Shown piece after piece: positions 3,820 through 54,680 of a DNA stretch of 64,000 bases. The number at the start of each line of letters is the position of its first letter. Position 1 is the stretch's first letter. Both the position numbers and the translations under genes were made by a program. Source of the stretch: Naegleria gruberi (taxonomy: Eukaryota); assembly GCA_000004985.1 (NCBI GenBank), contig GG738848.1; one strand, given 5' to 3'. The notes under the pieces were generated by a model, which worked only from the letters and a program-made list of their open reading frames with translations, ran no database searches and was not told the DNA's origin.

Positions 3820-6800
3820 ATGATGGACTCCACCACAACAATGAATGGAAGTGATGAAGGTAGTACAATAACAATGAATGGAACAATCCATCATCATCAA
3901 AATACCAATGGTATTACTTCTTCATCAACACTAGCAGCAACTAGTAGTGATAATAACAATCATGATACATTAACAAGCACTCTGAATGATGATGCTATTA
4001 TTGAATCCACTCCAATCAAACAAGAAAGCTTTGATGAAAACTTGATGAAACAAAATTCAACAACGAGGCAACTATTGACAAAACCATTGTCTCTGGTTGA
4101 TTATGAATACTTACTCAAATTGGAGACTGACCTTTCCAATCAAGAAGATAACCATCTAGATGAAGGATATTTAAAGGATGCTGCAGAAGATTACGACAAA
4201 TTGGGAGATTACTGTACAAGTTATTTTGAATCGAATAGTTTAGATTTGGAGGTACAAAAACAGTTAATAGCAGAGAATTCAATCGAAACTCTGACAGTAG
4301 AAGAATCTAAAACTTTGGAATCCAAGACAATTTCAAAAACCCTTGAGGAAACATTCAATAGTATTTGTGATGAATATCTTGATATTAATGTGTATGAAGA
4401 GATTTTATCTCAACAATACGAGGAGCAAAATGAAAAGAAGAGAAAGCCATGTGATGGTGTTGCCATTCATACTTGGAAGAATACATTAATAAGAGCAAAT
4501 CAACCAACCTTGTTGGTTTCTTCATCCATGAGAAAAAAGAAGAGAACAAAAAGGGATGAACAAGATAGAGGCAACTTTGAAGTTGCATTCACTGTTCCAA
4601 TGAATGGTTTCAATATTAATAAGGTGGTTGAAAATTTCCAGAATTGCATCAGTTCACACCATCATTTTATAGACAAGGCCACCAATTTGAGAAGTAAGAA
4701 GAGTTGGATTGAAAATATGAATCAAGAACAAACAGAAATCAAAACACAAGTTGAACAATTTTCTAAAGCTCTCATTCATGAAAAGTTGAACGAAACGTTG
4801 AACTCTCAAAAGAGTCACGATACTAGAGCAACAAATGGAACTTCAAAGCCATCTGTAAATATCAAACACTCCAAATTACATCAAATATCCAAAGATGTGG
4901 CTCAAAAGGTAAAGGAAAAACAAACCAAATCAGTAACAGAGCTGGATAATACTGTGGGAGGTATTTCATCTGTACTTTCTGATAGAATGAACTCTTTTTG
5001 GAAGAAACACGAAAAGGAAATATCAGAAAAGAGAAAGAGAAAAAAGAAGGAAGAGGAAGAGAAGGAGGAAGCTGTAAGACAACAAAGAAAGTTAAACTTT
5101 CTCCTCTCTCAAACAGAACTCTACTCTCACTTTATGTCCAAAAAATCAATCACAAGTGCTGTCACTTCTGATGATTCAACAGAAGAGAATGCAGCTCAAT
5201 CAGCTCTTCAGGCATCACAAAGACAAAAGCAATTCACTGAAGATTTTGATAAGGAAATTGAAAAGTACAGAACACAATCATCAATGGAGGATGAAAATAT
5301 AATTGAAGCAGGTGACGAGACCATGCAAGAGCCAAATATTTTCAATGGCTCACTTAAAAAGTACCAGTTGAAGGGTATGAAATGGTTGGTATCTTTGTAC
5401 GAGCAAGGTATCAATGGTATTTTAGCAGAGTAAGTATATTTAACATTGCACTCCTTACTAAGACTAATATTACAATTCTTTATTTTAATGAAAATTTTAA
5501 TAGTGAAATGGGTTTAGGTAAAACAATTCAAACCATTGCATTTATGGCCTATCTGGCTGAAAAGAAGAGTATTTGGGGACCAACCCTTATCATTACTCCT
5601 TCATCTACACTTCACAATTGGCAACAAGAATTTGAAAAATTCTGTCCAACACTTCGAGTATTACCATACTGGGGAGCATTGAAGGAGAGAAAATTGCTCA
5701 GAAAGTACTGGACCAATCCAGATAAGCTCTATCAAAAAGACTCACCATTCCATGTTGTTGTTTCCAGTTATGGTTTAATATTGGAAGATGAAAAGTATTT
5801 CAAAAAAGTCAAGTGGCAATATTTAATTCTAGACGAAGCCCATGCCATTAAATCGAGTAAGAGTTTGAGATGGAAAACACTGTTGAGCATGAAATGTAGA
5901 AATAGAATGCTTTTAACAGGTACTCCTATTCAAAATAACATGAAAGAGTTGTGGGCCTTGCTTCACTTTATCATGCCTTCAATATTCGATTCTCATGACG
6001 AGTTTAATGATTGGTTTTCGAAAGATATTGAATCTCATGCAACAAAGGAACAAGACACCAAACTTAACGAGCAACAATTGGCCAGATTACACATGATTCT
6101 CAAACCTTTCATGTTGAGAAGAGTCAAGAAGGATGTTGAAAGTGAAATGGCACCAAAAACTGAGGTTGTCCTCTCGTGTGGGTTGAGTTCTCTGCAGGGA
6201 GAAACTTACTACCGTATTAAGGACGATTTCAAAAAATCCTCCAAAGATAAGAAGAAGAAGATTGCTGTTGATTCAACAAGCAAGTCAGCACTGATGAATA
6301 TTGTAATGCAACTGAGAAAGGCATGTAACCATACTCATTTATTCAAAGAGTTTAGACAAGACACACTCTCTCCATTCCCATTCACCACGCCAATATCATT
6401 CTTGAAGCACATTCCAGGAAAAATTTATGATGAGTGTGAAAGATTGACCAATCCTATTCAATTCCACCTTCCTAAATTAATTTTTAGGGAGCTGACACCA
6501 CAAGGATCTCTAGAAATGGAATCTAACAGTTTGATGATTTCAAAGAGATTTGACTTTGTTCATGACATTTCATACATGATAGATACGTTTGGAACACTTC
6601 GTTACTTTTTCAAAGATAATTTTTGGAGATTGTACAAACTTAGAAATTTAAAGAATAGAATAGTCGAGTTCAGAGATAGAAAGGGTGGTTTTCAATTTTT
6701 AATGGATGAGTTACTAAGTGAACAATTGAACAACCACCTCGAGAGATGTAATTATCTTATTCAAAATATTGAAATTTTCTACAAATCCAATAGAGATCTC

Positions 6801-7610
6801 CTCAAGAAACTTGGCGAGTGTTGCATTGAAAAAGTTATTGCACCACCAATAGAAGTCAAATGTTCTGATAGAGGTTGTGATTATCAAATGACACCCATTA
6901 AGACTAGGTTCTTTAATAAGAAGTTCTTGTACAATAATCAATTTATTTATGATACCTTTAACACTTCCAGAATATCATTACCGAGTGTTAGCAAACTTAT
7001 TGCCGATTCTGGAAAACTCAAAGTTTTGGATCAATTACTTTCGAAATTGAAACAAGAAGGACATAGAGTTTTAATTTTCTGTCAAATGACAAAAATGATG
7101 GACCTTTTAGAAGAGTACATGTACAAGAGAAGATATACATTCTTTAGATTGGATGGTTCAACAGGAATTTCAGAAAGAAGAGACATGGTAGATGCCTTCC
7201 AAAATCAACGAGTGGATCCAGTTTTTGCATTCCTTCTCTCCACAAAAGCTGGAGGTCTAGGTATTACCTTAACAGCAGCAGATACAGTCATTTTCTATGA
7301 CAGTGATTGGAATCCAACATTGGATGCTCAAGCCATGGATCGTGTCCACAGAATTGGTCAAACTAAGCCAGTTACAATCTATCGTTTAATTACTAAAAAC
7401 TCTGTGGAAGAGAGAATCCTTGCCATTGCCAAGCAAAAGAGTACCATTCAAGAGACAGTCTACAAGGGTCAATTCAAAATGCAAGACAGCAATGAAGAAG
7501 AAGCAGCTGATGAACTTCTCGAAGATGAGGATGCAGTTGAGGCAGCAGTCGTAGTCGATGATGCAGGAGATTTGGATGAGAAGGAAATCATGTCCCTCAT
7601 TCTAGATTAA
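3820..7610 (+). CDS. INO80: INO80-type SNF2-family chromatin-remodeling ATPase; join(3820..5429,5504..7610), about 1239 aa
   Basis: Exon 1 ends GCA GA|GTAAGT and exon 2 starts after TAATAG at 5504. Splicing creates GINGILADEMGLGKT (SNF2 motif I). A DEAH box (LILDEAHAIKSS) is present. A roughly 400-aa insertion separates the two RecA lobes. Helicase-C motifs are present (LIFCQMTKMMD, LLSTKAGGLGITLTAADTVIFYDSDWNP, QAMDRVHRIGQTKPV). A DBINO-like basic region (KKHEKEISEKRKRKKKEEEE...LNFLLSQTELYSHFM) lies in the N-terminal exon. Confidence 0.85.
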
Positions 7611-17185: not shown

Positions 17186-17228
17186 TTTTTTTAATAAAAT
17201 TTAAAACAATTTTTTTTTCAATTTTTTA

Positions 17229-17273
17229 CATTTATAGTAAAAACAATGAGACAACAAGCTCGAAAACATTGAG
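17229..17273 (-). repeat. Retroelement short repeat B2 (45 bp), putative 3' boundary
   Basis: Identical to B1. A 370-bp spacer separates it from A2. Confidence 0.75.
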
Positions 17274-17438
17274 TTTATTCTTCTACGCGTACACAAATTG
17301 CATACACTTTTATCCTCTTTTCATTCATTCAGCCATCCAGCCAGCTCAGTATTCATGGATATACTACTATATCATACTAAACTAACCTTAGACTGAATAA
17401 ACTCACATATTTGCAACTACTAGCAAAACAAACCAAAT

Positions 17439-17497
17439 AGATATTCCTATGAATATCTATTCGAACTTCAGTAGATATTCCATTGAATATCTACTTA
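17439..17497. repeat. Two adjacent perfect hairpins (10-bp and 11-bp stems, 4-nt loops) in the retroelement 3' spacer
   Basis: Hairpin 1 is atagatattc-ctat-gaatatctat. Hairpin 2 is agtagatattc-catt-gaatatctact. Both share the core agatattc/gaatatct. A GC-rich tract follows at 17520..17640. Confidence 0.7.
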
Positions 17498-17642
17498 AAA
17501 AACCCTCATTGGGTATTGATCGTGACAAGGGCTATCCCGGTGTCAACATGTTAAATTATCGCCACCTTCCTGGCCGATCAAATGACACCGTCGTCTATTA
17601 AGCCAATATAATACTTACAGATATTTTCGATCTAGGGTGGGG

Positions 17643-17844
17643 TGGTGGGTCATCTTAAGTATGTCAGTGATGGTTTCTTGAATTGTTGATTGACTCATAA
17701 TGTGTTGCAATTTTTTCAACTTGAGTTTTACTTTCCTTCAGTAAAACTCTCTATTTAACCTAAATTTTCATTGTAAAATTTAGGTTGACTACGTTACCTG
17801 GTTGTCTATTGTTTTTACAATATAAACTTACGTAAGGTGTGGAC
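17643..17844 (-). repeat. Retroelement repeat A2 (202 bp)
   Basis: Identical to 21688..21889. It follows B1 immediately after the ORF A stop. Confidence 0.85.
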
Positions 17845-17887
17845 CTTACTACCATTTATAGTAAAAACAATGAGACAACAAGCTCGA
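17843..17887 (-). repeat. Retroelement short repeat B1 (45 bp)
   Basis: The sequence catttatagtaaaaacaatgagacaacaagctcgaaaacattgag repeats at 17229..17273. It is flanked on both sides by the decamer gaccttacta. Confidence 0.8.
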
Positions 17888-17914
17888 AAACATTGAGACC
17901 TTACTAGCATAAGT

Positions 17915-20900
17915 TTAGAAGCCCATCAAGTGTGAACCGTTTCTATCACCTCTAAAGTTAGCTCGAAAATATCTGTCTATAGCATCTGAATTCCAACCAC
18001 CCATGGCCTTGATGGTAGCATCAGGGATACCCATAATGGCAGCCTCCGTGGCTCCACCAATTCTCAACGAATGAGAAGAGTACTTTCCTGGATCAGCTTC
18101 GATCCATGTTGCAACCTGAGTTAAGATGTAAGAAATCTCAACTGTATTTAAAGAAAAACCACCGGTAAACAAAAACTTTCCTTTGTCTCTTGAATCAAGT
18201 AATTTTTGAAGCCATTTCATCGGACACAATTCAGAACCTGTCGCTTCGATACATGATTTTCTTCCTTTCTTATCATTCTTCACTTTTCTCACTGTTATAC
18301 TAAACCCCACCACCGGGAACTTCACAATCTTTAGATCCTCTATTAATAAACCACCCAATTCTGAACCCCTAAACATTGACCTTATACCAAAAATCATTAG
18401 GCACGTGTATAGAACATATGATTTTTCTTTAACAAACTGTCTACCAACAATTACCCATTTACAAATAAATTCTATTCTCCATGGATCTCTTTCTCTCTTT
18501 GTCGCCACTGTAGCCAGATTGCACATACCCTTTATCACCATCTGTACTCTAATGTTTACTGTAATATCCTCCCAACCAATCCTTTTACAAAAATGCTTAA
18601 TAGCATACATTGCACTTCGACAGTTATTACCAGATGGTGTTTTGATGAACATAAAGGTGAGAAATCTGACTACCATTTCACTAGTTGCTGGTGGAACCTC
18701 TTTTTGCTTAATAAGAAAGTTGATAAATCTATTCCAATAACTTTCATAGTTGTCTGTTGTGGATATTTCAATTGAACATGACATTAATGTATCTGCAATC
18801 TTACTCAAATCGTGACTCTGCAGTCTACTAATGTTGCTCTTATGGTCCAAAATCCTTTGCATGGTTCTAGGTTCCCTCCTTGGGAGGCTCTGAAATGATT
18901 TCCATCTAGATTCATAAAACGAATTTGATAACTTTCTATTATCTTCCACCACCACCTCTTTTTCCATACTGGATGAACCAATACCATAACTGCTTTGGAC
19001 TCTAGACAATGTTGTAATACTCTCCCTATTAGATTGAAAGGTACGCAGCACCAATTTACCACTGGCTCTGTCCAAAGGTGAGAGAATGAATCTGCTTTCT
19101 CTCTTCTGCTGGTCTTCTTTCTCACTGTATATGGTTTTGTCTTGAAGTTGTAATGAGAGGCGAATCTGTCCCATCCTATTGATACATCCAGCTGCTTCTC
19201 TACTAATTGAAAAGCTTCTTTGGTAATCTCCCAATCTGTTGGGTCTTTCTCTTGAATATTTCTGCTCAGATTGTCCGCTACTTGATTCTCCTCCGAAGGT
19301 AACCATTCTAACGAAAGCAAACGGATGTCGTGTTCGAAAATAATGCGCCATATTAGTTGAATCAATTGATTCATAATGGGAGACTTTGCTCTTCCCTTCA
19401 TTATACAATATAGAGCCACCTTTGAATCCGTGTAAACAATTAAATTCTTTCCTTTCAAAAGATGTGACCATTCTTTTAGGGCAAGATAGATCGCTCTCAC
19501 TTCTAATACATTGATATGTTCTTGGCATTGTTCTCCCTTCCAAAAACCTTGTAGTTTCAAATTTCTTTCTTTGTGGAAAACTCCCCATCCCAATCTCGAT
19601 GCATCTGTCCAAAAGTATTCCACTAAGCTTGGATATTGGAACACCTTTCCATTCCAATGGTCCAAGTTGTATAAAATCCATTGGAGATTGAAAATTACAT
19701 CTCGGTCTCTGATGCGAAATTCGGAATCCCAGCCTCCAATATTCACCTAGTCCACCACTAAAGAATAAATCGGATTCAACATCACCCTTGCAGGTTGGAA
19801 ACAGTCTACATAAGCAATTATAATACCAGTCATCCGAAACAGTTCTCTGGATGTTACTTTCTGATCTTGGTGATACTTGGCAAGGGCTATGGAAATACGA
19901 GTTCGAATTTTCTCTAATGTAGCTTCTGTCATAATTAATTTCCTGCTGACCAGATCTATCTTGATCCCAAGTAGTTGAAAGACTTTTAATGGAGTTAACT
20001 GACTCTTCTTCTTTTCGATAACTACACCTAATTCTGCACATACCATTGTAACGAATGTATTGTTCCTTAATGCAGATAAATAGGAACCAAAATGTAATAA
20101 ACCAACATCGTCTAAGTAATTGGATGGTGTTAAAGAATCTGATCTCAAAAAATTGATAAATACATTCATCATTTGTGTAAAAAAGTATGGAGATCCATTC
20201 CATCCAAATGGAAGGACTGTGAATTGCAAAACCTCTTCCTCTACTTGAATGGCAAAGTATGGTCTGTCCTTCCTTTTTACCTTCATCTGGTGATATCCGG
20301 ATTTCATATCGAACATAGAACCCCAAATTTGATCTGTCTTGTTCATTGGTACGTGTTCTAAAAACTTCTTCAACGTGTTGTACTTGAATTTGGGGATAGA
20401 ACAAAACCGATTGAGCGGTCTTAAATCGATAATCAGTCGGTATGATTCTTTCTTTGGGACCAGCCGATACTTGGCTATCACTTTTGGATTGTGACAAGGT
20501 TCCAAAGCTCCAATCTCTTTCAAAATACTCACTTCTCTTTTTAACCATTCTCTCTCTTCCAAAGACCATTCTTCTAAATTTACCTTTCCATAGTATGGAA
20601 CAAATTCTTCGTTTGTTTGAACTGATACACCCTCTTTCAACATATCCACTATTTCCATTGAAGCTCCTTTCTTCCTCCAGGTATCCCATTTGTTCGAAAT
20701 GGAATGAATAGCCTCTCTTCTTTCTTCTACCTCTCGGAAAAAACAAATCATCTACATACTCTGAACCCTCTCTTTTATTTCTCTTAGGGCAATCTTTGAT
20801 CAGATGGTTTGGGTCATTACAAATAAAGCATTTCTTCACTTTCTTCATACCATTAGCACTACCAAACATATTCACCTTTTCCTCTGCCTTATCTTTCTTA

Positions 20901-21754
20901 TCATAAATCTTGGCATTTGCATAGGATTTAACAAAACTTGTCTTACCCTTCTCCTTATGGTCGAACTTGAGTAGTTTTTCTGCCATCTTAAGCTTATCCA
21001 TGTTCTCACGCCATAATGGATTGCTTTCTATAAACGCCAATTTAGATGCTAATTCTGGATTGACGGCTTGAACTTGTAATTGGAAAGCTCTTGTCTCTAA
21101 GTTCGCAACCATTTTCTTCGTATCATCTATTTCTGGGAAAAGATTAGCTATCTTCATTGTAAAAGCAGAATCCTTTCTCAAATTCTCATATTCTGTAAGA
21201 AGACTAGAATTAGTTGTTGGCAATGGTGTGTAGATTGTATCTGTGTATTTTCTAACTTCAGATTCAGCTGCCAATTGTTGTAAAACACGTTCTGTTTCAG
21301 CTTTTTCCAGCTTCATCTGTGCAATCTTAGCATCGATTATTTGTTCATAAGCCTTAAATCTCTTCACATCTTCTTCTGATACCTCTTCTCTCTTTCTCTT
21401 GTTAGAGCCATCTTCAACTTCTACAACTGACTCACCATCGTCCTCTTCGTCATCATCATCGTCATCATCATCTCTTGCTTCCTTGAATGCATGTTTAATC
21501 TCATCCTTTAACTTCTCTACATCTTTACTCTTGCCACTTGTGCAAACCGTAAACTTGTCTGCACCAATAAAGTCAACAATTGCCTTTGCCAATACCTTCT
21601 TTTGGCCAGAAACTTCAATTTCCAAGGTACCTATAATCTTTTGTATCAAGGCCTTTGTTAACTTTCCAACAGCACTTTTATCATGCTTCTTAAGTATGTC
21701 AGTGATGGTTTCTTGAATTGTTGATTGACTCATAATGTGTTGCAATTTTTTCAA
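17915..21754 (-). CDS. Retroelement ORF A: Gag-like N-terminus with CX2CX4HX4C zinc knuckle, then a C-terminal tyrosine recombinase, in one uninterrupted 1279-codon frame
   Basis: Starts MKKLQHIMSQ within repeat A1. The knuckle is CFICNDPNHLIKDCPKR. The YR boxes are HSLRIGGATEAA and GGWNSDAIDRY at the C-terminus. The middle ~600 codons have no recognisable domain yet stay open while overlapping the RT/RH frame. Confidence 0.75.
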   Translation of the reverse strand: MKKLQHIMSQSTIQETITDILKKHDKSAVGKLTKALIQKIIGTLEIEVSGQKKVLAKAIVDFIGADKFTVCTSGKSKDVEKLKDEIKHAFKEARDDDDDDDDEEDDGESVVEVEDGSNKRKREEVSEEDVKRFKAYEQIIDAKIAQMKLEKAETERVLQQLAAESEVRKYTDTIYTPLPTTNSSLLTEYENLRKDSAFTMKIANLFPEIDDTKKMVANLETRAFQLQVQAVNPELASKLAFIESNPLWRENMDKLKMAEKLLKFDHKEKGKTSFVKSYANAKIYDKKDKAEEKVNMFGSANGMKKVKKCFICNDPNHLIKDCPKRNKREGSEYVDDLFFPRGRRKKRGYSFHFEQMGYLEEERSFNGNSGYVERGCISSNKRRICSILWKGKFRRMVFGRERMVKKRSEYFERDWSFGTLSQSKSDSQVSAGPKERIIPTDYRFKTAQSVLFYPQIQVQHVEEVFRTRTNEQDRSNLGFYVRYEIRISPDEGKKEGQTILCHSSRGRGFAIHSPSIWMEWISILFYTNDECIYQFFEIRFFNTIQLLRRCWFITFWFLFICIKEQYIRYNGMCRIRCSYRKEEESVNSIKSLSTTWDQDRSGQQEINYDRSYIRENSNSYFHSPCQVSPRSESNIQRTVSDDWYYNCLCRLFPTCKGDVESDLFFSGGLGEYWRLGFRISHQRPRCNFQSPMDFIQLGPLEWKGVPISKLSGILLDRCIEIGMGSFPQRKKFETTRFLEGRTMPRTYQCIRSESDLSCPKRMVTSFERKEFNCLHGFKGGSILYNEGKSKVSHYESIDSTNMAHYFRTRHPFAFVRMVTFGGESSSGQSEQKYSRERPNRLGDYQRSFSISREAAGCINRMGQIRLSLQLQDKTIYSEKEDQQKRESRFILSPLDRASGKLVLRTFQSNRESITTLSRVQSSYGIGSSSMEKEVVVEDNRKLSNSFYESRWKSFQSLPRREPRTMQRILDHKSNISRLQSHDLSKIADTLMSCSIEISTTDNYESYWNRFINFLIKQKEVPPATSEMVVRFLTFMFIKTPSGNNCRSAMYAIKHFCKRIGWEDITVNIRVQMVIKGMCNLATVATKRERDPWRIEFICKWVIVGRQFVKEKSYVLYTCLMIFGIRSMFRGSELGGLLIEDLKIVKFPVVGFSITVRKVKNDKKGRKSCIEATGSELCPMKWLQKLLDSRDKGKFLFTGGFSLNTVEISYILTQVATWIEADPGKYSSHSLRIGGATEAAIMGIPDATIKAMGGWNSDAIDRYFRANFRGDRNGSHLMGF
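18805..20751 (-). CDS. Retroelement ORF B: reverse transcriptase plus RNase H, in the +1 frame relative to ORF A, with one in-frame stop at 19747..19749
   Basis: RT motifs are LPFGWNGSPYFF and SNYLDDVGLL. The RNase H motif is LIVYTDSKVALYC / TDASRLGWGVF. The two track ORFs 19747..20751 and 18805..19746 share one frame and are split by a single stop. The frame begins exactly where the Gag part of ORF A ends, which suggests a frameshift junction near 20751. Confidence 0.75.
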
Positions 21755-21889
21755 CTTGAGTTTTACTTTCCTTCAGTAAAACTCTCTATTTAACCTAAAT
21801 TTTCATTGTAAAATTTAGGTTGACTACGTTACCTGGTTGTCTATTGTTTTTACAATATAAACTTACGTAAGGTGTGGACCTTACTACCA
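21688..21889 (-). repeat. Retroelement repeat A1 (202 bp), contains the ORF A start codon
   Basis: Identical to 17643..17844 by direct inspection. Confidence 0.85.
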
Positions 21890-21940
21890 ATTATTTAGAA
21901 TTTACAAATATAGATAATAATATACAAATAATCGGCAAGA

Positions 21941-23639
21941 TTACTTTTGAGAAACCATATTCTTTGCAATGAGGAGGGATACATTCTTTGCTGAGATTAG
22001 GTTAGTTTCCATAGTACTGACAACACTTTCAACACTATTCGTATAGTAAATATTATTGTGGAGTTTGACAGGAGGTTGAATATTATTTGGTTTGAGAATT
22101 GGATAACTTCCATGTTTCCAAACTTGTTGAACTACTGATGTGGCTCCAACAAACATTTCCTGTAATGTTTTGGTTGAAAGTGGCTCATGACTATACGATT
22201 CGAATATTCTTTCTGATTCATCAGGTGTCTTTCCAATAGGTGCAATATTATTGAGTGGTAGATATTTGGTCAAAAGTGGTTTCATTGTTGTAATATACAC
22301 ATCTGATTCAGAGCAATCAGTTCCAAAATAATTCTTGTTCAAGTCCTTTGCACGAATAATGCTAGTAATCAGAATATTCATATCACGTTTTTGTAAGGCA
22401 GATGGAGGAAGTTTGATATTTTCAAATTTGATATTTGTAAACTCGAGTGGAGTTGCAACAATTACATAATCAAATTGACCGAGTTCAGAATTGTTTCCAC
22501 TCTTGAGAGAATACTTGTTTGATGCTGGATCGAATGAAATTTCAGAAACTTCACTATTCAACTTTAAGGTCAATCGATCTTTTGGAATTGATTCAATGCA
22601 ACCAAGTGGAACTTTTGAGGTTCCTTCAAGAACATGTCTAAAATCAGAAACTGCTCCAGCTAATCCAATAATTCCTCCATAGGCACTGATTTGATCAGAG
22701 TTTTGCATATAATTGATTCTCAAAATTGGATCACAATATTCCTTGATAAAACGTTCTTGAATCCAATTATTTCTTGCATATTCATAGAAAGTCAATTTGG
22801 TCAAATCACTCATTCCAGTATCTTGACAAAAATCTTCAGTACTTTCCCATGTATAGACCTTACTCAATGTTTCTGCATTTAATGGACCAGTCGATGGCAA
22901 TTCTTGGAGTTTGTAAATATTTAAAAATCTCTCCTTTGACAAGTAGTAATTAACACTTCTCTTCAATAAGAAGAGAGGAATACCAAAATCATATCTCCAT
23001 GCTCCTCTAATTGCAGTCTTCCACCAACTGTCAGATTCACAAAATACCATTCTCTTTTCGTCACCATTAAATATACCAATTCTGACATTAAAATGAGGTT
23101 CTTCCAATGTCAAATTAAACTTTTCAATCAAGCCCAAAATGTACTTGTTTTCCAAAATGACAGATGATCCACCCACTTCATATGAATACTTTGAATTTTG
23201 TCAATTAATTTTGATTCTGAAACATTAATTATAATAAACAAACCTTGTATGGATCCTTCTCATCCTGATACAAGACCATTTCCTTCAAACGACCTCCAAC
23301 TCGATCATCCCTCTCATAAACCACCAATTCAATTTCTCTCTTCATTTCTTGAGAATTGGAATTTGGCTCTGGTGAAGAAGAAGAGGAATCATTTTCTCTT
23401 CTATTCATCTCATCAACCAATTCGGAGAGAAAGTAGGCAGAGCCAGAACCAGAAATTCCACTGCCAATAATTGCAACTCTCTTATTGATCATTGAATTAT
23501 TAGCAACCTTTGGTGTTTCAGCTTGAATGGTTGTTGTAGGAAGGATCATGGAGTTTTTAGTGTGAGAAAAGTAGTTAGATCCGATCAAGCCAACTGAACC
23601 AACAGACAAAGTGGCAGCAACTAGACGTTTTAAAGACAT
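21941..23639 (-). CDS. Prenylcysteine oxidase (PCYOX1-like flavoprotein); join(23639..23244,23188..21941)
   Basis: An N-terminal signal-like segment is present. The FAD motif is VAIIGSGISGSGSAYFLSE...ELVVYERDDRVGGRL. A 55-nt intron runs GTTTGT...CAAAG, and the join ...DPYK|YSYEVGGSSVIL matches the conserved YEAGGSVIH block. A C-terminal Prenylcys_lyase-like region is present (GGIIGLAGAVSDFRH...VIVATPL). Confidence 0.7.
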
Positions 23640-42429: not shown

Positions 42430-45400
42430 ATGAATTCTAGAAACATCTACAGCAACAATGCAGGGTCGGTTGTTGGCTCAGATAGTTCTCAAGAATCACA
42501 CAATACTTCCAGCACAAATTCTTCATCATTTCAACACAAAATACGAGTGGAAGTCTTTAACTTTTTCTTTGCCTCACAGAATGTATCTAAAAAGCAAGGA
42601 GGTAAACGATTTTTTGCAATCCTATTATTGTACATACTAATTTATTGGAGTTATATATGGCTTCCTGTATTAAGCCCACAAGATTTTCACTTTGGTGCTT
42701 GGGGTTCATGGATATTTTCAGTATTTAACTATACAACAAGTTTATCAATGGATTTACTTCCGTATGAAGGAGCAATTGCTGTGGCTAGTATAACCATGAC
42801 TTTTATTGCAATAACCGTTTGTATTACTATTATTACTCTGTGGGCTGTAAAGTCTACTTCTCAATACATTAAGAAGATTCAAATGATTCTTCACATCAAT
42901 GCCTACTTAATAATAGTACTCTCTGCTCCTATAATATTTATTTTGACTAGTTTTGTGGATTGTGATTATGGATACAACCCAAGAGAATCATTGATAAATT
43001 TTGTATCTCACCATGCTAATGGTACTTCAATAAGTTCAACAGCAACTCTCACACCCATGCTCAACAGATTTACAAGCATGGAATGTTATTCAACAAATAA
43101 CATCATCTTGATGGCTGTCACCCTCTCATTCATTGCCTTATATTTTGTATTGTGTGTATTGGCCAACTTTTTGGTACCAAATTCACATCCATTAAGCTTT
43201 GCCCCAATGATAACGGAGGGTTACATCTTTCCTATTGGTATGAGTTTGGGAAATTGCATTGGAATTTTGGTACATTTCCTCATACCAGCAGAGTATGCTT
43301 TTGTGAGGTCTATTGTACATTTAGTATATGGCATGTGCATGCTTGTTGTTATTATGAAGAGTTTGCCAATGTATAGAAGATATGAAAACACAATTGTATG
43401 TGGAGTGGTATGCGCAAGATTTGGCACATCAATAGGAAGTATCATTTCCTTTTTTGTAAATGCATCGAACACTGCTGAAATTGGTATTGGAATGTGGGCT
43501 TTAACAACAGGACTGGCTGTTGGATTGGGTTTAGTGGGAGCTGTATCTATGGATATTTATACTCGTTACGTAATTTACTTTATCAAAACTAGATATATCT
43601 TATCAGTAAGATCATCTGATAGATCACTTGAAAAGGAAGCAACAAATATTTATTTCAAATTGGAAGAGGATGGAACCATGTACAAAATGATGTTATATAT
43701 GAGATTTGTTTTAATGAGATATGCTAGAACAAAGACAGAGGAATTAGAAGACAAGTACGACTTGGTTGCATTGATTTCATTCATTAGAGGAATAAGCTCT
43801 CAAAAGTGCTTCAGCGATATTGAACTGTTATCTATGGCTGGAACACTTGTTGGTTATCTGATGGTTGATGAAATGCACTCTTCATATTTTGCTCAAGCTT
43901 TGCTAAAGAGGGCTCTTAAACAGCGACCAGATGTCTATAAAAGATTCCTCATTCATCAAAGATTAAGGGAAGTAGAATTAACAGGTGCTGATGATGTTAA
44001 GGGAAGTAGAACCGTGCTTGAGTTGAAATCTATAATGCTCAATATTCAAAAATATATTACTGAACTCACTTCGTTACATCGTCACTTCTGGAAGGAATTG
44101 ATGCAGGAAATTGTGAACTATGAAAAGGCAGAAAATATAGTTGCAAGATGCTCTGTTATCAACCATGAATTAGATTCCATGTTCGACAACATTTTATCAC
44201 TGTACTATAATGACAAAACTGTACTGAGAACTTATGCCAGCTATTTAGAAAATTTCAAATTCAACAAAGAGCTTGCCAATGAATATTACACAGAAGCATC
44301 AAGTTTGGAAGAAGAAGAATCAAGGATTCCTCTCGCTCAAAAAGGTAATAGAAGGACAAAGAACAAGGTATTCCCAGATGTTCAGGAAAGTGTGGACATA
44401 TCTAAAAAGCTAGGCCCAAAAGGTTTGGCCGTTGGTAGAAGTGTTGCATTTGAAAATTTGGAAACAGCAAGTTACTTGTCTAGCAATATGGATTTTAATG
44501 GGGTTGAGAATGCTAATGCTGATACAAAGAGAGAAATTGGGTTTAGAAATGCCCTTTCTCTTCCTGATTCACACACCATTCACATTATTACTTTCGTTTT
44601 CTTTATTGTATTTGCTTTCATATTATTAGTTGTTGGTTTGGTTATTGGCTTACAATTCTCCAAAGGTGTAACAATGAATGTTGTTAATGTAATTGAAGCT
44701 TGCTCTCCAATATGCGCCTTGAGCAATGTTTTACAATCTGTTCGAGCATTCCAAATGCATTCAATGTTCAACTCTACCCTTGGCTCTTCCAATATTCCAT
44801 TAACTTTAACATCAGAGTCCTACATTGATTTGGCAAATACTAAGATTTTAGTTTCCAAATTCAAAGATATTCTTGTAAATCTGCAACAAAAAGCCTACAA
44901 TGCCAAGTTCGATGGAACTGTTTATTCAAATTATCATGAGGTTTACAGTGAAATTTACATGCCAAACATTGGTGATGATTCAAAATTTTATAACCACACT
45001 ACAAAGATCAATGTGACAGTGACAGATGTAACCAATACCCTTATTAAGATTTCTGATCAAATTATCAATTCAAAGGAAAATGATATAACTAAAACACTGA
45101 ACAGTTATGGATTCATGTTCCTTTACATCAATCATGAATCAATTACAGACATATATGACAAATTTTGTAATATCTTTACTGATTCTGCCAAGACTGAGGC
45201 CCTAGCAATCAACAATATCTTCACGATATATATTTCTGTGTCTCTGGCCACGTTTATATTGTGTGGAGCACTTTACATGATATTCTCAAGAAAGGAATTG
45301 ACAGTTGTTAGGGAGCAAATCAAACTCATTCAACATAATGTTTCCAAGAATGAAATTGGTAAATTATTCCATGATTTGGGTAAAAAAGTTGGTGACGAGG

Positions 45401-47695
45401 TTTCAATTCACATATCTAGAAATTCTCTATTCAAACCAAAGAATGCATTCTTGATCGTTTCTGCCTTTTTAATTATTATTGTTTCAGTGAGTTGTGGAAT
45501 TTACCTTGACCAAACTTTGGGTAATTCAACATACAGTTTTGAATCATACATTACAATGGAGGATGGTTTCGATACAATGACTCACTTGCAGTATGTTTCC
45601 TTTATTGGAACAGAGTATTTTTCACATGTAACAACAAGTATTGTCGGTTCTGAAACGTTACAGCTACTTGATGATGATGAAGTAGAAGCAATGGAGGACA
45701 AATTGTCTTATCTTACAAAGCAATTGAGATATTTTTGGAATCTGTGTATGTATGGTTCTTCAGTTAAGGCATATGAAACTCTTGTGGTTGGTATGTTCCC
45801 AGAGACTGATCAAATGATTAGAGGTTCTGTGAATTGTACTGTTGAAAAGTTGTCTGAAACCTATATTGCTGGAGGTAACAATTCCACAACATGTGAAATG
45901 GGCATTGACTATATGGTACAAGATACCATTCTAATGATTTACAAAATGGTTCAAGATTTGGAAGGTGTTCATCATTCCAAGGGTAAAACATCAATATCCA
46001 CTCTGATTGATTTATTGAATGATTATTTTAAAATCAATTATATGACCAAGACCATTTCCTTAAAGTTAATTGAATTTTCCAACATTTTTGCTGTCAAGTC
46101 ATCAACTCCTCTATTGAACAACATGATTGGTCTGGCAGTGGTTGGATTTGCAAGTAACATAATTTGTGCCATATTAATGTTCCTCTTGTTGAATAATCAT
46201 AGAAGAAGTGCATTTGCAATGAGAGGTTTATTCAACTATCTTTCCATTGATACATTGGAGAATAATGAGAAATTGAGAAACTATGCTCTATACCATACTC
46301 TTGGAGACAATGTACTTTCTAAGCTCAAGACAAAGAAACAAACTCAAAACGGAGAAGATGCTAAAGTCAGATCCATTTTGAATGCTGCTGTTGATGGTGT
46401 TGTACTTTGCTCTAGCTCTGCAAGTATTGATATTTTCAATCCAGCAGCTCAGAGAATGTTTGGTAATCAACAAGAAGATGTTATTGGCAAATACATTTTC
46501 ACTCTATTTGCACCACAGCATCATGGAGAAATTAGAAAATCAATTGAGGGAATGAAACATACTGTATCAGCCAATGATTCAAAGGGAGAAACCTTTGAAA
46601 TTGAATGTATAAGAAAGAATAATACTACATTCCCAGCTACGGTCAATATTTTCGTAACAATTTTCGACAAGAAACCAATCATTACTTGTTTTATCAAGGA
46701 TATTACTTCAGAGAAGAAGGTATGTATTTAATCAAGTAGTTATTTTAATTTACTTTTTACAATAATAGCACAATTCATTACTTGCTGAGGAAAAGAAGAA
46801 TTCAGAGACCTTATTGTTGAATATTTTGCCTGGAGCTGTTGCTTCGAAACTTAAATCTGGAGCATCTCTTATTGCAGAAAGATTCCCAGATGTAACTTGT
46901 TTCTTCTCAGACATGGTTGGATTTACATCACTCTCTTCCAAGTTGACTCCCAATGATCTAGTCCAAATGCTTAATAGTATTGTTATGGGATTTGATGATT
47001 TGATGGATAAATATCACTTGGAAAAGATTAAGACTATTGGTGATGCTTACTTTGCAGCAGGTGGTTTGCATGATTTGAATGCTCAATCTGATCACCCGGA
47101 AAGAGTTTTGAGATTTGCTATTGATACCTTCTCTGTCATTAGAGCCTACAATTCTGAGCATAGAAAGGGAAGAGTAAATGAACAAATCAATATTAGAATT
47201 GGTATAAATACTGGACCAGTTGTAGCAGGTGTTATTGGTCGTAAGAAGTTTGCCTACGATTTATGGGGTGATTCAATTAATACAGCCTCAAGAATGGAAT
47301 CTAACAGCAAGCCTGGAAGAATTCAAATTTCACGTTCGACCTATGAGAGAGTTCACGATTTGGGATTCACCTTTGAAGAAAGAAAGATTGAAGTGAAAGG
47401 AAAAGGTTTAACTCAAACTTACTTACTAGATGCCAAACATCATCAATCTGCTGTACTAACAGAGGAGGAGCTTACTGTAACTATAACAACCAATCAAGAT
47501 CACTATCAAGATGCTGATATTGAGCTAGAAGAAAATGAGGAGAGTTACCTCGAATTGGAAAAAACACATTTAGAAAAACCAAGTTTGCCTGTTGGTCAAT
47601 CAATGACATTTGGAAGTGTCAGTGAAATGAGTGATGAGCCTAATCCAAAAACTATTCCAACGATTCCAACAATCACAACAACAGAATTTGAATAA
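42430..47695 (+). CDS. Large polytopic membrane protein with C-terminal PAS domain and class III nucleotidyl cyclase catalytic domain, about 1738 aa; join(42430..46719,46769..47695)
   Basis: ATG at 42430. There are at least 10 predicted TM helices in several clusters. The PAS-like block is ILNAAVDGVVLCSSSASIDIFNPAAQRMFGNQQEDVIGKYIFTLF. A 49-nt intron runs AAG|GTATGT...AATAATAG. The cyclase motifs are LLLNILPGAVASKL, DVTCFFSDMVGFTSLSS and IKTIGDAYFAAGGL. Confidence 0.8.
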
Positions 47696-51650: not shown

Positions 51651-54600
51651 ATGCCTTCGCCATCTCTTCTTGATAATCCTTTTCAAGCTGTGCAAAGCAC
51701 ATCTGCTTTGTACACAATCAATATTAGATCTTTCTTTCTTCAAAAGAGAGATCGAATTGTTTTCTTGTCAGTTGTGATCATACTACTAACTCTTATACTT
51801 CCGCTATATCATGATATTTATTATGAGAATAGTTTACTTTCAAATACAATATTTTGCACAAATAATTTAAATAATGAGAGGTCAAATCAAATATTTTCGA
51901 CTGATGAATGGTCTGATAGCATGCACTGCAATTCTTATGTTGCAAACCATCCATTCATCAAGAATTGTCAATTCTCTGACTATTTTCCTCAATTTTTAAG
52001 AAGCATTCCAAAGATTTATATAATTTTTGCTGAATACGCGATCAAATTTATAATTTACATGTTTCTGTTGATGATATATTGGAGATTTCATAATGTAATG
52101 AACAAGCTCTTCAAGTTTTTATTACTTAATGAAACAATAGAAATGGAAAATGAGGCAAGGCAGCAAAGAACCTCAGGGGAATCACATCATGTGTACCTGC
52201 TGTGTTCTGAAGTTTCTAGATGTTTGTGTTCATCAATTTGGATAATGAGTGTACAAATGGTGTTGGGAAGAAATGCTCCAGCTTTTTTATGGATTTTAGT
52301 ATATAGTTGTCTTGGTTCGGTTGCTCTAGAAATGAGTAAGAAGCCAAGTATCGATTCCAAACAACAAACACATGTGACGCCTCCACCTGAACGTTTGCCC
52401 ATGTACAGAAAAATATTTAACTTTTTAAGGAAACTAATAATAGGCACACATGCGACAACATACGTTACTATTACAGTAATGGTGATATGTGAGCTCTTTG
52501 TAATGATTTACTATTTGAAATATTCAGCTTCATTTTGCTCATGCGTTGTAGTTTCTATTCTTATTGTACAAGTAATGACTATTGAATTGATAGATTTTAT
52601 GAGAAATCACTCTATTGAGTTTGTACAACAACGAGAGATGCAAAGTATGAAAAAAGTAGCCAATTTATATAAGAATCTATACATGACAGCACCTGACACA
52701 TTTCTCTCATGTGTATGCGATAGTGATGATGTATTAGTAAGACCATCCGATACAAAGGTGGAATCAGCATACTTGTTTCTTCAGTCATTCAAGATTGTCC
52801 AATACAACAACACAGCAATAGATACACTTTCATGTGCTTCCTCACTCTCCATTAATCCTGATAATTATTATAATCATTCAGATCATGAAGTGACTCTTGG
52901 TGATGTGATTATTAATCCTTACAAAGAATCTGATGAGGTAATGAGAACAGCAGCACTTGGAGGAAATTTACTCAGTGTCAGCGATTTACAAAACTCTGCT
53001 GTGTTGAAGCTTGGTGAAGTGTTGCAGGATGTTATTCAATCACCTTTTGACCAAACATCTAAGCAAACACCAACTCACGAGAGAATCCTCCCCTTGTTTG
53101 TTAAAGGAAAAAATCAAACAATACTAACATGCTCTTTGAGTATATCAAAGATTTTGCTCTATGATATCGACTCTGCAGGTGAGGGAATGGTCTTTTTTAA
53201 TATCATTCTTCACGACATTACTCAAAAATACAAACTATTGGATGAAATCAATGTAGAAAAGGAGAAAGCTATTGAGGCCAACAAAGCAAAGAGTCAATTT
53301 TTAGCACAAATGTCGCACGAATTGCGAACTCCTCTTCATGGTATTATTGGCCTTACTGATGTGTTGCTATCAAAATGTAAAGAAGAAACAGAAAATGAGA
53401 AAAACTTGGACACGTTTGATAAGGCTGTAAATCTCAATAATATTTGCAAGGATAGCGCCACTATTGCATTTGTGGAAAGTGAAAAATCTCACTCACCAGT
53501 ATTGGAACAACAAACGAACATTATTCAGACAATAAGGTATAGTGGTAACATTTTACTAGGCCTTATTAATGACTTATTGGATATTTGCAAGATTGAATCC
53601 TCGAAAATCAAGTTGGAAAATAAGAAGTTCAATTTGAGACGTGCTATTGACCAAATTCATTGTGGAATGTTTCAATTACAAGCTAGAGAAAAATCATTAG
53701 AGTTCAATTTACAGCTCGGTGAGAATGTTCCAACTTTTATAGTTGGCGACGAGTATCGTCTTGTTCAAATCCTTATCAACCTGGTATACAATGCCATTAA
53801 ATTCACCGATATGGGATCAGTTTCTCTCATTATTGAGTCAAAACCACCATCTGAAGACAACGTTTATGAGCTTACATTTAAGGTAACTGATACTGGAATC
53901 GGAATTTCGCAACATGATTTGAAGAGATTGTTTCAACCCTTCTCTCAAATATTGAGCACTTCACACAAGCAGACCAAGATTAATGAAGGTACTGGCTTGG
54001 GTCTTTACATTTGCAAACAACTTGTCGAAATGATGAGAGGTACCTTGTGTGTTGATAGTGAGGAAGGCGTGGGAAGCACTTTCTGGTTTACCATTAAATT
54101 CCATGGTGAGTTTATTCCTGGCTTTGAAGAAACAACCCGCTCCAAGATACTTTCTAAGAATGTATCGTCTAAATCACTGCTATCCCTAGAAAATTGCAAG
54201 AAAAATGAGCTAACAACAGTTAGAACACCAACTATTGAGGATTTTGAATCAAGTTTACCAAAATTGAAAATTCTAATAGTTGAGGATAATGCAATCAATA
54301 GAATTGTTTTGATTAATATGTTGAAGAAAATTGGTTGTACAAATATTGCAGTGGCTCAAGATGGTTTGGAGGGTGTTCAACAATTTGAAGAATTTAAAAA
54401 GACCAATCAACTTTTTGATATAATTTTTGTTGACATTTTCATGCCTAGATTGGATGGTTATGGAACTGTAAGAAGAATACTGGAACTAGAATCCAACGAT
54501 CCTTCCGATCATCACTCGATTCTAGTAGCCCTGACAGCAAATGGGTTTGAGGAAACCAGAAATTATTGTCTAGAGCATGGATTTGATGTGTTTATGAGCA

Positions 54601-54680
54601 AGCCATTCTCAATTACTGATTTAGAGCAGTGTGTAACAAATTGCATGACCAGAATCCATCCAAGTAGTATAATTCCGTAA
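51651..54680 (+). CDS. Hybrid sensor histidine kinase: N-terminal multi-TM domain, HisKA, HATPase_c, C-terminal receiver domain; 1009 aa, no intron detected
   Basis: ATG at 51651. The H-box is FLAQMSHELRTPLHGIIGL, the N-box LINLVYNAIKFT, G1 DTGIGIS and G2 GTGLGLYICKQLVEMM. The receiver has KILIVEDNAINRIVL, the phospho-acceptor Asp in DIIFVDIFMPRLDG and MSKPF. Confidence 0.85.
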   Translation: MPSPSLLDNPFQAVQSTSALYTINIRSFFLQKRDRIVFLSVVIILLTLILPLYHDIYYENSLLSNTIFCTNNLNNERSNQIFSTDEWSDSMHCNSYVANHPFIKNCQFSDYFPQFLRSIPKIYIIFAEYAIKFIIYMFLLMIYWRFHNVMNKLFKFLLLNETIEMENEARQQRTSGESHHVYLLCSEVSRCLCSSIWIMSVQMVLGRNAPAFLWILVYSCLGSVALEMSKKPSIDSKQQTHVTPPPERLPMYRKIFNFLRKLIIGTHATTYVTITVMVICELFVMIYYLKYSASFCSCVVVSILIVQVMTIELIDFMRNHSIEFVQQREMQSMKKVANLYKNLYMTAPDTFLSCVCDSDDVLVRPSDTKVESAYLFLQSFKIVQYNNTAIDTLSCASSLSINPDNYYNHSDHEVTLGDVIINPYKESDEVMRTAALGGNLLSVSDLQNSAVLKLGEVLQDVIQSPFDQTSKQTPTHERILPLFVKGKNQTILTCSLSISKILLYDIDSAGEGMVFFNIILHDITQKYKLLDEINVEKEKAIEANKAKSQFLAQMSHELRTPLHGIIGLTDVLLSKCKEETENEKNLDTFDKAVNLNNICKDSATIAFVESEKSHSPVLEQQTNIIQTIRYSGNILLGLINDLLDICKIESSKIKLENKKFNLRRAIDQIHCGMFQLQAREKSLEFNLQLGENVPTFIVGDEYRLVQILINLVYNAIKFTDMGSVSLIIESKPPSEDNVYELTFKVTDTGIGISQHDLKRLFQPFSQILSTSHKQTKINEGTGLGLYICKQLVEMMRGTLCVDSEEGVGSTFWFTIKFHGEFIPGFEETTRSKILSKNVSSKSLLSLENCKKNELTTVRTPTIEDFESSLPKLKILIVEDNAINRIVLINMLKKIGCTNIAVAQDGLEGVQQFEEFKKTNQLFDIIFVDIFMPRLDGYGTVRRILELESNDPSDHHSILVALTANGFEETRNYCLEHGFDVFMSKPFSITDLEQCVTNCMTRIHPSSIIP

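What the first reader, a model, noticed from the sequence alone, without database searches (positions are those of the whole stretch)
17229..21889. Apparently intact tyrosine-recombinase retrotransposon with Ngaro-type split direct repeats
The element has Gag (CCHC), RT, RNase H and a C-terminal tyrosine recombinase, but no integrase or methyltransferase. Its repeat layout is A1 (202 bp, containing the Gag start), ORFs, B1 (45 bp), A2, a 370-bp spacer, then B2. That layout resembles the split direct repeats described for Ngaro/PAT-type elements, not LTRs and not the inverted terminal repeats of DIRS1. Both A copies and both B copies are 100% identical, which implies recent transposition or ongoing homogenisation. 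The decamer gaccttacta flanks B1 on both sides and is a candidate recombination core. The element lies 44 bp upstream of an F-box/LRR gene ATG.
Basis: partly seen in the sequence, partly recalled or inferred. Interest (0 to 1): 0.8.

Follow-up and report, generated by a model that had tools for sequence, protein, structure and literature searches.

The report
Known PAT-like retrotransposon of Naegleria
This is a nearly intact tyrosine-recombinase retrotransposon of Naegleria gruberi that Repbase already lists as DIRS-1_NGr; it belongs to the PAT-like group, not the Ngaro group, so it is an ordinary catalogued mobile element.

Summary
On the minus strand the layout is A1 (200 nt), ORFs, B1 (45 nt), A2, a 379-nt spacer, then B2, with both repeat pairs identical. 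Gag-CCHC, RT, RNase H and a tyrosine recombinase are all present.

- A DIRS-type methyltransferase-like domain follows RNase H (47 bits against at most 10 bits for shuffles). This rules out Ngaro and points to PAT-like.
- The copy is not fully intact. Pol carries an in-frame TAG where relatives have Met or Leu.

The window is Naegleria gruberi. The RT, RH and YR fragments published as Repbase DIRS-1_NGr, and listed as PAT-like by Ribeiro et al. 2019, match this locus at 376 of 376 residues. The element is therefore already known.

- One 1,272-codon frame runs from Gag through to the recombinase and overprints all of pol. It has 0 stops where 39 are expected, and two 60%-identical metagenomic relatives keep the same frame open.
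- Pol lies in the +1 frame, behind a TTT-TTT-CCG site.
- The B|A junction lies inside an 80-nt palindrome.

These features fit the "long ORF overlap" and circle-junction model already described for this order. Interest is low.

The parts
21688..21887 (-). A1, the 5' split direct repeat (200 nt). It contains the Gag ATG (21733-21731) and a 12-bp hairpin.
   Evidence: Identical to 17653-17852.
17915..21733 (-). Long ORF of 1,272 codons plus stop. It comprises Gag (21733-20752), a stop-free overprint of pol ('X', 20751-18808), and the tyrosine recombinase (18805-17918).
   Evidence: ORF list and stop map. Pfam finds zf-CCHC and Phage_integrase.
20783..20836 (-). CCHC zinc knuckle of Gag (CFICNDPNHLIKDCPKRN).
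   Evidence: PF00098, residues 307-324 of the ORF.
20735..20743 (-). TTT TTT CCG in the Gag frame. This is the candidate +1 frameshift site into pol.
   Evidence: Pol is +1 relative to Gag. CCG occurs 0.9 times per 1000 codons in host ORFs. Relative L001 has TTT_T at the same junction and no ATG in the pol frame. The site is inferred, not shown.
18805..20751 (-). Pol ORF in the +1 frame: RT (19957-20460, YLDD), RNase H (19261-19608) and an MT-like domain (18934-19170). It ends at TGA 18805-18807.
   Evidence: Pfam RVT_1, RVT_3 and RNase_H. MT-like profile at 47 bits.
19747..19749 (-). In-frame TAG between RT and RNase H. It is probably a nonsense mutation; TTG>TAG would be silent (CTT>CTA, Leu) in the long ORF.
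   Evidence: Relatives have M or L here.
17969..18421 (-). Tyrosine recombinase catalytic domain (motifs RGSE, HSLRIGG, GGW, RYF).
   Evidence: PF00589, E 2e-5. 142 of 142 residues are identical to the published DIRS1_NGr YR fragment.
17853..17897 (-). B1, the internal copy of the 3' split direct repeat.
   Evidence: Identical to 17229-17273.
17653..17852 (-). A2, the internal copy of the 5' repeat. It directly follows B1, and B1|A2 is the presumed circle junction.
17801..17879 (-). Imperfect palindrome of about 80 nt spanning the B1|A2 junction. The junction falls in its internal loop.
   Evidence: DNA fold z -6.1. Inverted repeats found. RNA fold of 17600-17990 gives z -7.0.
17274..17652 (-). 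Spacer S between A2 and B2. It is non-coding, strongly structured, and has twin 22-nt hairpins at 17436-17496.
   Evidence: RNA fold z -5.0. No Rfam family matched. It has no similarity to the rest of the element.
17229..17273 (-). B2, the 3' terminal repeat.
17897..17906 (-). Copy of the decamer TAGTAAGGTC just upstream of B1. The other copies are at 17842-17851 and 21877-21886, at the start of A.

Best explanation
The locus is one young copy of DIRS-1_NGr. [quoted passage not shown] It is inserted in a roughly 95-bp intergenic gap of Naegleria gruberi.

Shown:
- The domain set is Gag-CCHC, RT, RNase H, an MT-like domain and a tyrosine recombinase.
- The repeats are split direct repeats, A1 ... 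B1A2-S-B2.
- The locus is identical to the published DIRS-1_NGr protein fragments.
- Pol lies in the +1 frame and is fully overprinted by a stop-free frame that joins Gag to the recombinase.
- Pol carries one nonsense codon.

Inferred mechanism, by analogy with the published model for this order:
1. A transcript runs from within A1 to B2.
2. It is reverse transcribed.
3. The internal B1A2 copy supplies the template that rebuilds and joins the two ends into a circle.
4. The B|A junction of that circle lies in a long palindrome.
5. The recombinase recombines this junction with an A/T-rich target that resembles the B end, without a true target-site duplication.

Inferred expression:
- Ribosomes that stay in frame make Gag-X-YR.
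- A minority shift +1 near TTT-TTT-CCG and make Gag-Pol.
- Because of the TAG in pol, this copy probably depends on proteins supplied in trans, or is dead.
For: Host:
- Four window ORFs are exact N. gruberi proteins from one 712,659-bp scaffold.
- INO80 is 79% identical to N. lovaniensis.

Identity of the element:
- The RT, RH and YR fragments labelled DIRS1_NGr in supplements 16-18 of PMC6681497 match at 121/121, 113/113 and 142/142 residues.
- Supplements 14 and 15 of that paper list it as PAT-like.

Domains and repeats:
- Domains.
- Repeats.

Overlapping frame:
- 0 stops against 39.2 +/- 4.1 expected (minimum 26 in 5000 synonymous shuffles).
- 0 of 192 codons that precede AA/AG/GA codons end in T, against 166 of 455 elsewhere.
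- Relatives L001 and L002 show the same pattern: 0 stops against 31.5 and 24.2 expected.
- Long pol/YR overlaps are a described trait of DIRS1-like elements (PMC3266345).

Junction and target:
- Junction palindrome.
- Target similarity.
Against: - Only one genomic copy could be examined, so the exact ends and the role of the spacer are not confirmed by a second copy.
- No circle junction, transcript or frameshift product was observed.
- TTTT is a weak motif in A/T-rich DNA.
- The RT tree places the element with PAT references in only 83 of 200 bootstraps, and published trees do not recover PAT-like as monophyletic.
- L001 and L002 differ from this copy in frame relations, so the Gag-X-YR fusion may not be general.
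Confidence: 0.88

Rival explanations
1. It is an Ngaro-type element: a YR retrotransposon with split direct repeats and no methyltransferase.
For: - The A1 ... B1A2 ... B2 layout, with internal repeats downstream of YR, is shared with Ngaro.
- Pfam itself reports no MT domain in this protein.
Against: - The MT-like domain is present (47 bits against at most 10 for shuffles; alignment).
- RT similarity to Ngaro references is 25-40 bits, against 55-75 bits for DIRS-like and PAT-like. It is sister to Ngaro alone in 9 of 200 bootstraps.
- There is a long ORF overlap, which Ngaro usually lacks.
- The literature lists the family as PAT-like.
Confidence: 0.03
2. The locus is a head-to-tail cointegrate of two units. 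One is an autonomous A-int-B element. The other is a short non-coding A-S-B element of 624 nt, comparable to SIRE of VIPER or the solo AB units of Cafeteria Ngaros. Under this reading it is not one element whose normal form is A1 ... B1A2-S-B2.
For: - B1|A2 is exactly what a circle junction between two units would look like.
- S is unrelated to the internal region and is strongly structured.
- In T. cruzi, SIRE corresponds to A2 plus about 30 bp plus B2 of VIPER.
- Solo AB units exist for Cafeteria Ngaros.
Against: - The A1 ... B1A2 ... B2 arrangement is the standard full-length form in PAT-like, Ngaro and VIPER elements. In nematode Pat1 and Kangaroo, large segments lie between A2 and B2.
- In the accepted model the internal B1A2 is needed to regenerate the ends.
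- No separate A-S-B or A-int-B unit could be looked for, because the rest of the genome was not searchable.
Confidence: 0.08
3. The stop-free frame across pol is a by-product of base or codon composition and has no function. Under this reading YR is translated independently.
For: - The X peptide has no recognisable domain.
- It shows no extra conservation. Third-base identity at identical residues is 0.46 in the overlap, against 0.43 in YR and 0.56 in Gag.
Against: - None of 5000 synonymous shuffles gave fewer than 26 stops.
- The third frame has 75 stops over the same stretch.
- The same frame is stop-free in two relatives at about 60% amino-acid identity.
- T-ending codons are completely avoided before AA/AG/GA codons.
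Confidence: 0.02

Closest known systems
Repbase DIRS-1_NGr (Naegleria gruberi), as used in Ribeiro et al. 2019, Mob DNA 10:34 (PMC6681497)
   Same: All 376 residues of its published RT, RNase H and YR alignment fragments are identical to this locus. The host species is the same.
   Different: Nothing detectable. The nucleotide consensus and its annotated ends were not available to compare. This copy has a TAG in pol, and whether the consensus shares it is unknown.
PAT-like elements (Pat1 of Panagrellus redivivus, SpPat1, Kangaroo, Toc)
   Same: - YR plus RT, RNase H and an MT-like domain.
- Split direct repeats A1 ... B1A2 ... B2.
- A zinc finger in Gag, as in Pat1.
- Internal repeats downstream of YR, as in the echinoderm form.
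   Different: - Only 24-30% RT identity to PAT references.
- Weak tree support (83/200).
- A 379-nt structured spacer between A2 and B2.
- A pol/YR overlap that covers the whole of pol and is fused in frame to Gag.
DIRS1-like elements (DIRS-1 of Dictyostelium discoideum and relatives)
   Same: - The same domain set, including the probably inactive MT-like domain.
- A long overlap between the pol and YR ORFs, with the catalytic YR domain in the non-overlapping 3' part.
- RT similarity as high as to PAT.
- Piednoel et al. 2011 assigned N. gruberi sequences to this group by similarity.
   Different: It has no inverted terminal repeats and no internal complementary region. The termini are direct split repeats.
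Ngaro elements (DrNgaro1, Cafeteria Ngaros)
   Same: Split direct repeats with B1A2B2 at the 3' end, a YR, and Gag-RT-RH.
   Different: Ngaro lacks the MT-like domain and usually lacks ORF overlaps. Its RT is distant from this one.

Membership tests
Repbase family DIRS-1_NGr | Sequence identity with the family's published protein fragments, in the same host. | tested here: met
   121/121 (RT), 113/113 (RH) and 142/142 (YR) residues are identical. The host is N. gruberi.
Repbase family DIRS-1_NGr | Nucleotide identity with the Repbase consensus, and the same ends. | not testable with these tools
   Repbase is not among the collections. A search for the name in the paper library found nothing.
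PAT-like (DIRS order) | Encodes a tyrosine recombinase instead of a DDE integrase. | tested here: met
   PF00589 at E 2e-5, 24.9 bits, just under the 27.1 cut-off. The R, HxxR, W and Y motifs are visible in the sequence. No rve hit was found.
PAT-like (DIRS order) | Pol with RT, RNase H and the putative methyltransferase domain. | tested here: met
   - RVT_1 at E 5e-18 and RNase H families.
- MT-like profile at 47 bits, against at most 10 bits for 2000 shuffles.
- Relatives P0030, P0004 and P0010 give weak Dam or PCIF1 hits on the aligned region.
PAT-like (DIRS order) | Split direct repeats A1 ... B1A2 ... B2, which distinguish it from DIRS1-like. | tested here: met
PAT-like (DIRS order) | RT and YR group with PAT references in a phylogeny. 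| tested here: inconclusive
   Sister to PAT alone in 83 of 200 NJ bootstraps and to DIRS+PAT in 31. Published trees do not recover PAT-like as one clade.
Pat1-like subgroup | Zinc finger in Gag. | tested here: met
   zf-CCHC, E 7e-4. CX2CX4HX4C is visible.
Ngaro | Absence of the MT domain. | tested here: not met
   The MT-like domain is present.
Ngaro | RT groups with Ngaro RTs. | tested here: not met
   25-40 bits against 55-75 bits for DIRS-like and PAT-like. 9 of 200 bootstraps.
Ngaro | Split direct repeats with internal repeats downstream of YR. | tested here: met
DIRS1-like | Inverted terminal repeats plus an internal complementary region. | tested here: not met
   No inverted repeat links the two ends. 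The only long repeats are direct.
DIRS1-like | Long overlap of the pol and YR ORFs (present in about half of described members). | tested here: met
   The trait is described in PMC3266345.

The most novel reading that the evidence does not exclude
In this family the recombinase is not a separate gene. It is the zero-frame continuation of Gag through a 649-codon overprint of pol that is kept free of stops but is not conserved as a peptide. Pol is reached by a +1 frameshift at UUU-UUU-CCG. One frameshift event would then divide ribosomes between a Gag-X-recombinase product and a Gag-polymerase product. This would explain why many DIRS-order elements keep a long pol/YR overlap.
Probability: 0.3. 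Interest if true: 0.45.

Novelty: already known. Interest (0 to 1): 0.2.

Why it matters
It matters little beyond annotation. The family is already in Repbase and has been used in a published phylogeny as PAT-like.

Three points have modest value.
- This copy gives a clean anatomy for an excavate PAT-like element: exact split repeats, a junction palindrome and the insertion site. Piednoel et al. 2011 called the Naegleria sequences too degenerate to describe.
- The element sits 43 nt upstream of a host gene start, which may affect that gene.
- It is an unusually clear case of a stop-free overprinted frame (0 stops against 39 expected). It could serve as a test system for how DIRS-order elements express their overlapping ORFs.

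Tried and rejected
- Exact look-ups of the F-box ORF and the 1,272-aa ORF found no record.
- The metagenome scan with a family alignment returned only distant DIRS elements, at most 35% identical, and no terminus-bearing relatives.
- The contigs of close relatives (L001-L003) do not reach the element ends and have no A/B-type repeats.
- The third protein search, with the long ORF, returned nothing, probably because low-complexity words filled the candidate list. As a result no other N. gruberi copies could be fetched.
- Rfam found nothing in the element.
- There are no tRNA genes in the window.
- A PDB sequence-profile search with the MT-like domain found nothing.
- The test for amino-acid constraint on the overprinted peptide was negative.
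- An intron that removes the TAG was considered and rejected, because the sequence after it encodes conserved residues.
- A true 10-bp target-site duplication was considered. The 9/10 flanking match more likely reflects a small array of CAAT-T(n) units in the target that also resemble the B end.
- A tRNA primer-binding site at the TGG that starts A was considered and not supported.


Full report
**Observation**

The element lies on the minus strand.

Repeats:
- Two direct repeat families dominate the region. One is a 200-nt pair at 21688-21887 and 17653-17852. The tool extends it to 207 nt with one mismatch. The other is a 45-nt pair at 17853-17897 and 17229-17273.
- Both pairs are identical. 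They occur nowhere else in the window, and none is expected by chance.
- Read 5' to 3' on the element strand, the order is A1, coding region, B1, A2 (abutting B1), a 379-nt spacer S, then B2.
- The decamer GACCTTACTA occurs three times against 0.08 expected. It lies on both sides of B1 and at the start of A1.

Domains:
- Pfam finds a CCHC knuckle, RVT_1 (E 5e-18), RNase H families and a C-terminal Phage_integrase domain.
- It finds no rve integrase and no protease.

Neighbours:
- B2 ends 43 nt before the ATG of an F-box/LRR ORF.
- A1 starts about 50 nt after the stop of a prenylcysteine lyase ORF.

**Two corrections**

First, the pol frame has an in-frame TAG at 19747-19749, between RT and RNase H.
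- The two closest relatives in public data are P0001 (60% identical) and P0002 (58%). They have Met and Leu at that position.
- The residues after the TAG are conserved, so no intron removes it.
- The simplest reading is a nonsense mutation. A TTG>TAG change would be silent in the overlapping frame.

Second, the 'no methyltransferase' statement is wrong.
- The stretch after RNase H reads DRFASHYNF...NWCCVPFNLIGRVL...HPVWKKRWWW. It aligns with the DLFAS...YAFPPF...APxWPxQxWF domain of ten DIRS-type relatives.
- A profile built from those ten alone scores it at 47 bits. The best of 2000 shuffles scores 10 bits.
- Three of those relatives give weak Pfam Dam or PCIF1 hits on that region.
- This is the domain the literature calls MT in DIRS and PAT elements. 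It is thought to derive from PCIF1 and to be inactive (PMC4738411). Here FPPF has become CVPF.

**Host and identity**

- INO80 in the window is 79% identical to Naegleria lovaniensis and 78% to N. fowleri.
- Four window ORFs are exact Naegleria gruberi proteins, such as XP_002681926, from one 712,659-bp scaffold.
- Ribeiro et al. 2019 (PMC6681497) include a Repbase entry DIRS-1_NGr from N. gruberi in their RT, RNase H and YR alignments. Their sequence tables list it as PAT-like.
- All 121, 113 and 142 residues of those fragments are identical to this locus. The only gaps are at columns they trimmed.
- Piednoel et al. 2011 (PMC3266345) had already detected seven DIRS1-like sequences in six families in N. 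gruberi. They judged them too degenerate for structural description.

The element is therefore already catalogued.

**Classification**

Published definitions:
- DIRS-group elements carry the MT domain. Within that group, DIRS1-like elements have inverted terminal repeats plus an internal complementary region, and PAT-like elements have split direct repeats.
- Ngaro and VIPER have split direct repeats but lack MT, and usually lack ORF overlaps.
- Among PAT elements, only Pat1-like have a zinc finger in Gag.

This element has MT, split direct repeats, a Gag zinc finger, and no terminal inverted repeats. That makes it PAT-like by structure.

Its RT scores 55-75 bits against DIRS-like and PAT-like references and 25-40 bits against Ngaro. 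In a simple NJ analysis of 30 sequences it was sister to:
- PAT alone in 83 of 200 bootstraps;
- DIRS+PAT in 31;
- DIRS alone in 20;
- Ngaro alone in 9.

The Ngaro label is rejected. The PAT-like label rests mainly on structure, as it does in the literature.

Frame layout:
- The Gag frame has no stop from 21775 to 17917. One 1,272-codon ORF therefore runs from the Gag ATG, across the whole of pol, into the recombinase.
- Pol (20751-18805) is in the +1 frame.
- The third frame has 75 stops over the same 648 codons.

Evidence that the frame is kept open:
- Shuffling synonymous codons of pol gives 39.2 +/- 4.1 stops in the Gag/YR frame, with a minimum of 26 in 5000 trials. The observed number is 0.
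- None of the 192 pol codons that precede an AA-, AG- or GA-initial codon ends in T. Elsewhere 166 of 455 do.
- The same frame is stop-free in L001 (0 against 31.5 expected) and L002 (0 against 24.2 expected), although these are only about 60% identical at the protein level.

Limits:
- Third-base identity at identical residues is no higher in the overlap (0.46) than in YR (0.43) or Gag (0.56). The frame is kept open, but the peptide does not appear conserved.
- This matches the 'long ORF overlap' described for about half of DIRS1-like elements, with the catalytic YR domain in the non-overlapping 3' part.
- The in-frame fusion to Gag may be particular to this family. L001 and L002 differ in frame relations, possibly through indels.

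**Entry into pol**

- In L001 the pol frame opens without an ATG, so a frameshift from Gag is the likelier route.
- At the junction this element reads TTT TTT CCG in the Gag frame. CCG is the rarest proline codon in host ORFs of the window, at 0.9 per 1000.
- L001 has TTT_T at the same place.
- This resembles Ty1-type +1 shift sites. It is an inference from a short motif only.

**Termini and junction**

Junction palindrome:
- The B1|A2 junction lies in an imperfect palindrome of about 80 nt (17801-17879). The DNA fold gives z -6.1, with arms listed.
- The element ends fall in a 4x4 internal loop between an outer stem of about 25 bp (the end of B pairing with the start of A) and an inner stem, GTAAGGT/ACCTTAC, capped by CCAC.
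This gives some support to the idea that it belongs to the recombination site.
- The second decamer copy, upstream of B1, remains unexplained.

Surrounding structure:
- A 14-18-nt pairing between the end of the YR ORF and the start of S encloses the B1-A2 region. The RNA fold of 17600-17990 gives z -7.0.
- S itself folds with z -5.0. It matches no Rfam family.

Insertion site:
- The 10 nt on each side of the element match at 9 of 10 positions. Only 5 of 59,321 positions in the window do as well.
- The target is a small array of CAAT-T(n) units, and the B end (CATTTATAG on the plus strand) resembles those units.
- I read this as recombination into a site similar to the junction, not as a true target-site duplication. 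That fits the published no-TSD model.

**Mechanism**

Shown: the anatomy, the dual-frame constraint and the nonsense codon.

Inferred from the published model for this order:
1. A transcript runs from within A1 to B2.
2. It is reverse transcribed.
3. The internal B1A2 copy is used to restore and join the ends into a circle.
4. The tyrosine recombinase recombines the junction with the target.

An alternative is that the locus is a cointegrate of a full unit and a short A-S-B unit, like SIRE of VIPER or the solo AB units of Cafeteria Ngaros. This cannot be excluded without other genomic copies. It is less likely, because the A1 ... B1A2 ... B2 form is the norm in these groups.

**Verdict**

This is a real and well-preserved copy, probably non-autonomous, of an already catalogued PAT-like retrotransposon. 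Novelty is low. The clean example of an overprinted reading frame is the only aspect worth a follow-up.

Noticed in passing
window 17801-17879: An imperfect palindrome of about 80 nt spans the B1|A2 junction.
   Followed up: partly
window 17959-17976 and 17617-17634: An 18-nt stretch at the 3' end of the YR ORF is 94% complementary to the start of spacer S. In the predicted fold this pairing closes a domain around B1-A2 (z -7.0 for 17600-17990).
   Followed up: partly
window 17436-17496: Two tandem 22-nt hairpins (TAGATATTC-loop-GAATATCTA) lie in the spacer, 12 nt apart. The whole spacer folds far better than shuffles (z -5.0) but matches no Rfam family.
   Followed up: partly
window 17219-17228 and 21888-21897: The 10 nt flanking the element on each side match at 9 of 10 positions (CAATTTTTTA / CAATTATTTA). 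The target is a small array of CAAT-T(n) units that also resemble the B end, so this is probably not a true target-site duplication.
   Followed up: partly
window 17617-17698 (minus strand): A2 plus the start of the spacer carries a 27-codon ORF that begins with the first 15 codons of Gag.
   Followed up: no
L002 3595-3754 and L003 3461-3620: Two metagenomic relatives from different ENA samples share the same frame changes. Both have a YR ORF cut short after about 40 residues, next to a 32-nt direct repeat. They may be a recombinase-less derivative.
   Followed up: no
window 3820-7610: The INO80 homologue is split into two overlapping ORFs (3820-5433 with DBINO, 5382-7610 with SNF2 and helicase). 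The Naegleria orthologues are single proteins of about 1,270 aa. This suggests a short intron or a frameshift in the assembly.
   Followed up: no
window 21941-23639: The prenylcysteine lyase gene just upstream of the element is in two ORFs separated by about 50 nt, probably a short intron. Its stop codon is about 50 nt from A1.
   Followed up: no
window 42430-46731 and 51651-54680: Two large ORFs lie in the same window: a TmcB-type TPR plus PAS protein, and a hybrid histidine kinase (HisKA, HATPase_c and receiver). Both are ordinary host genes.
   Followed up: no
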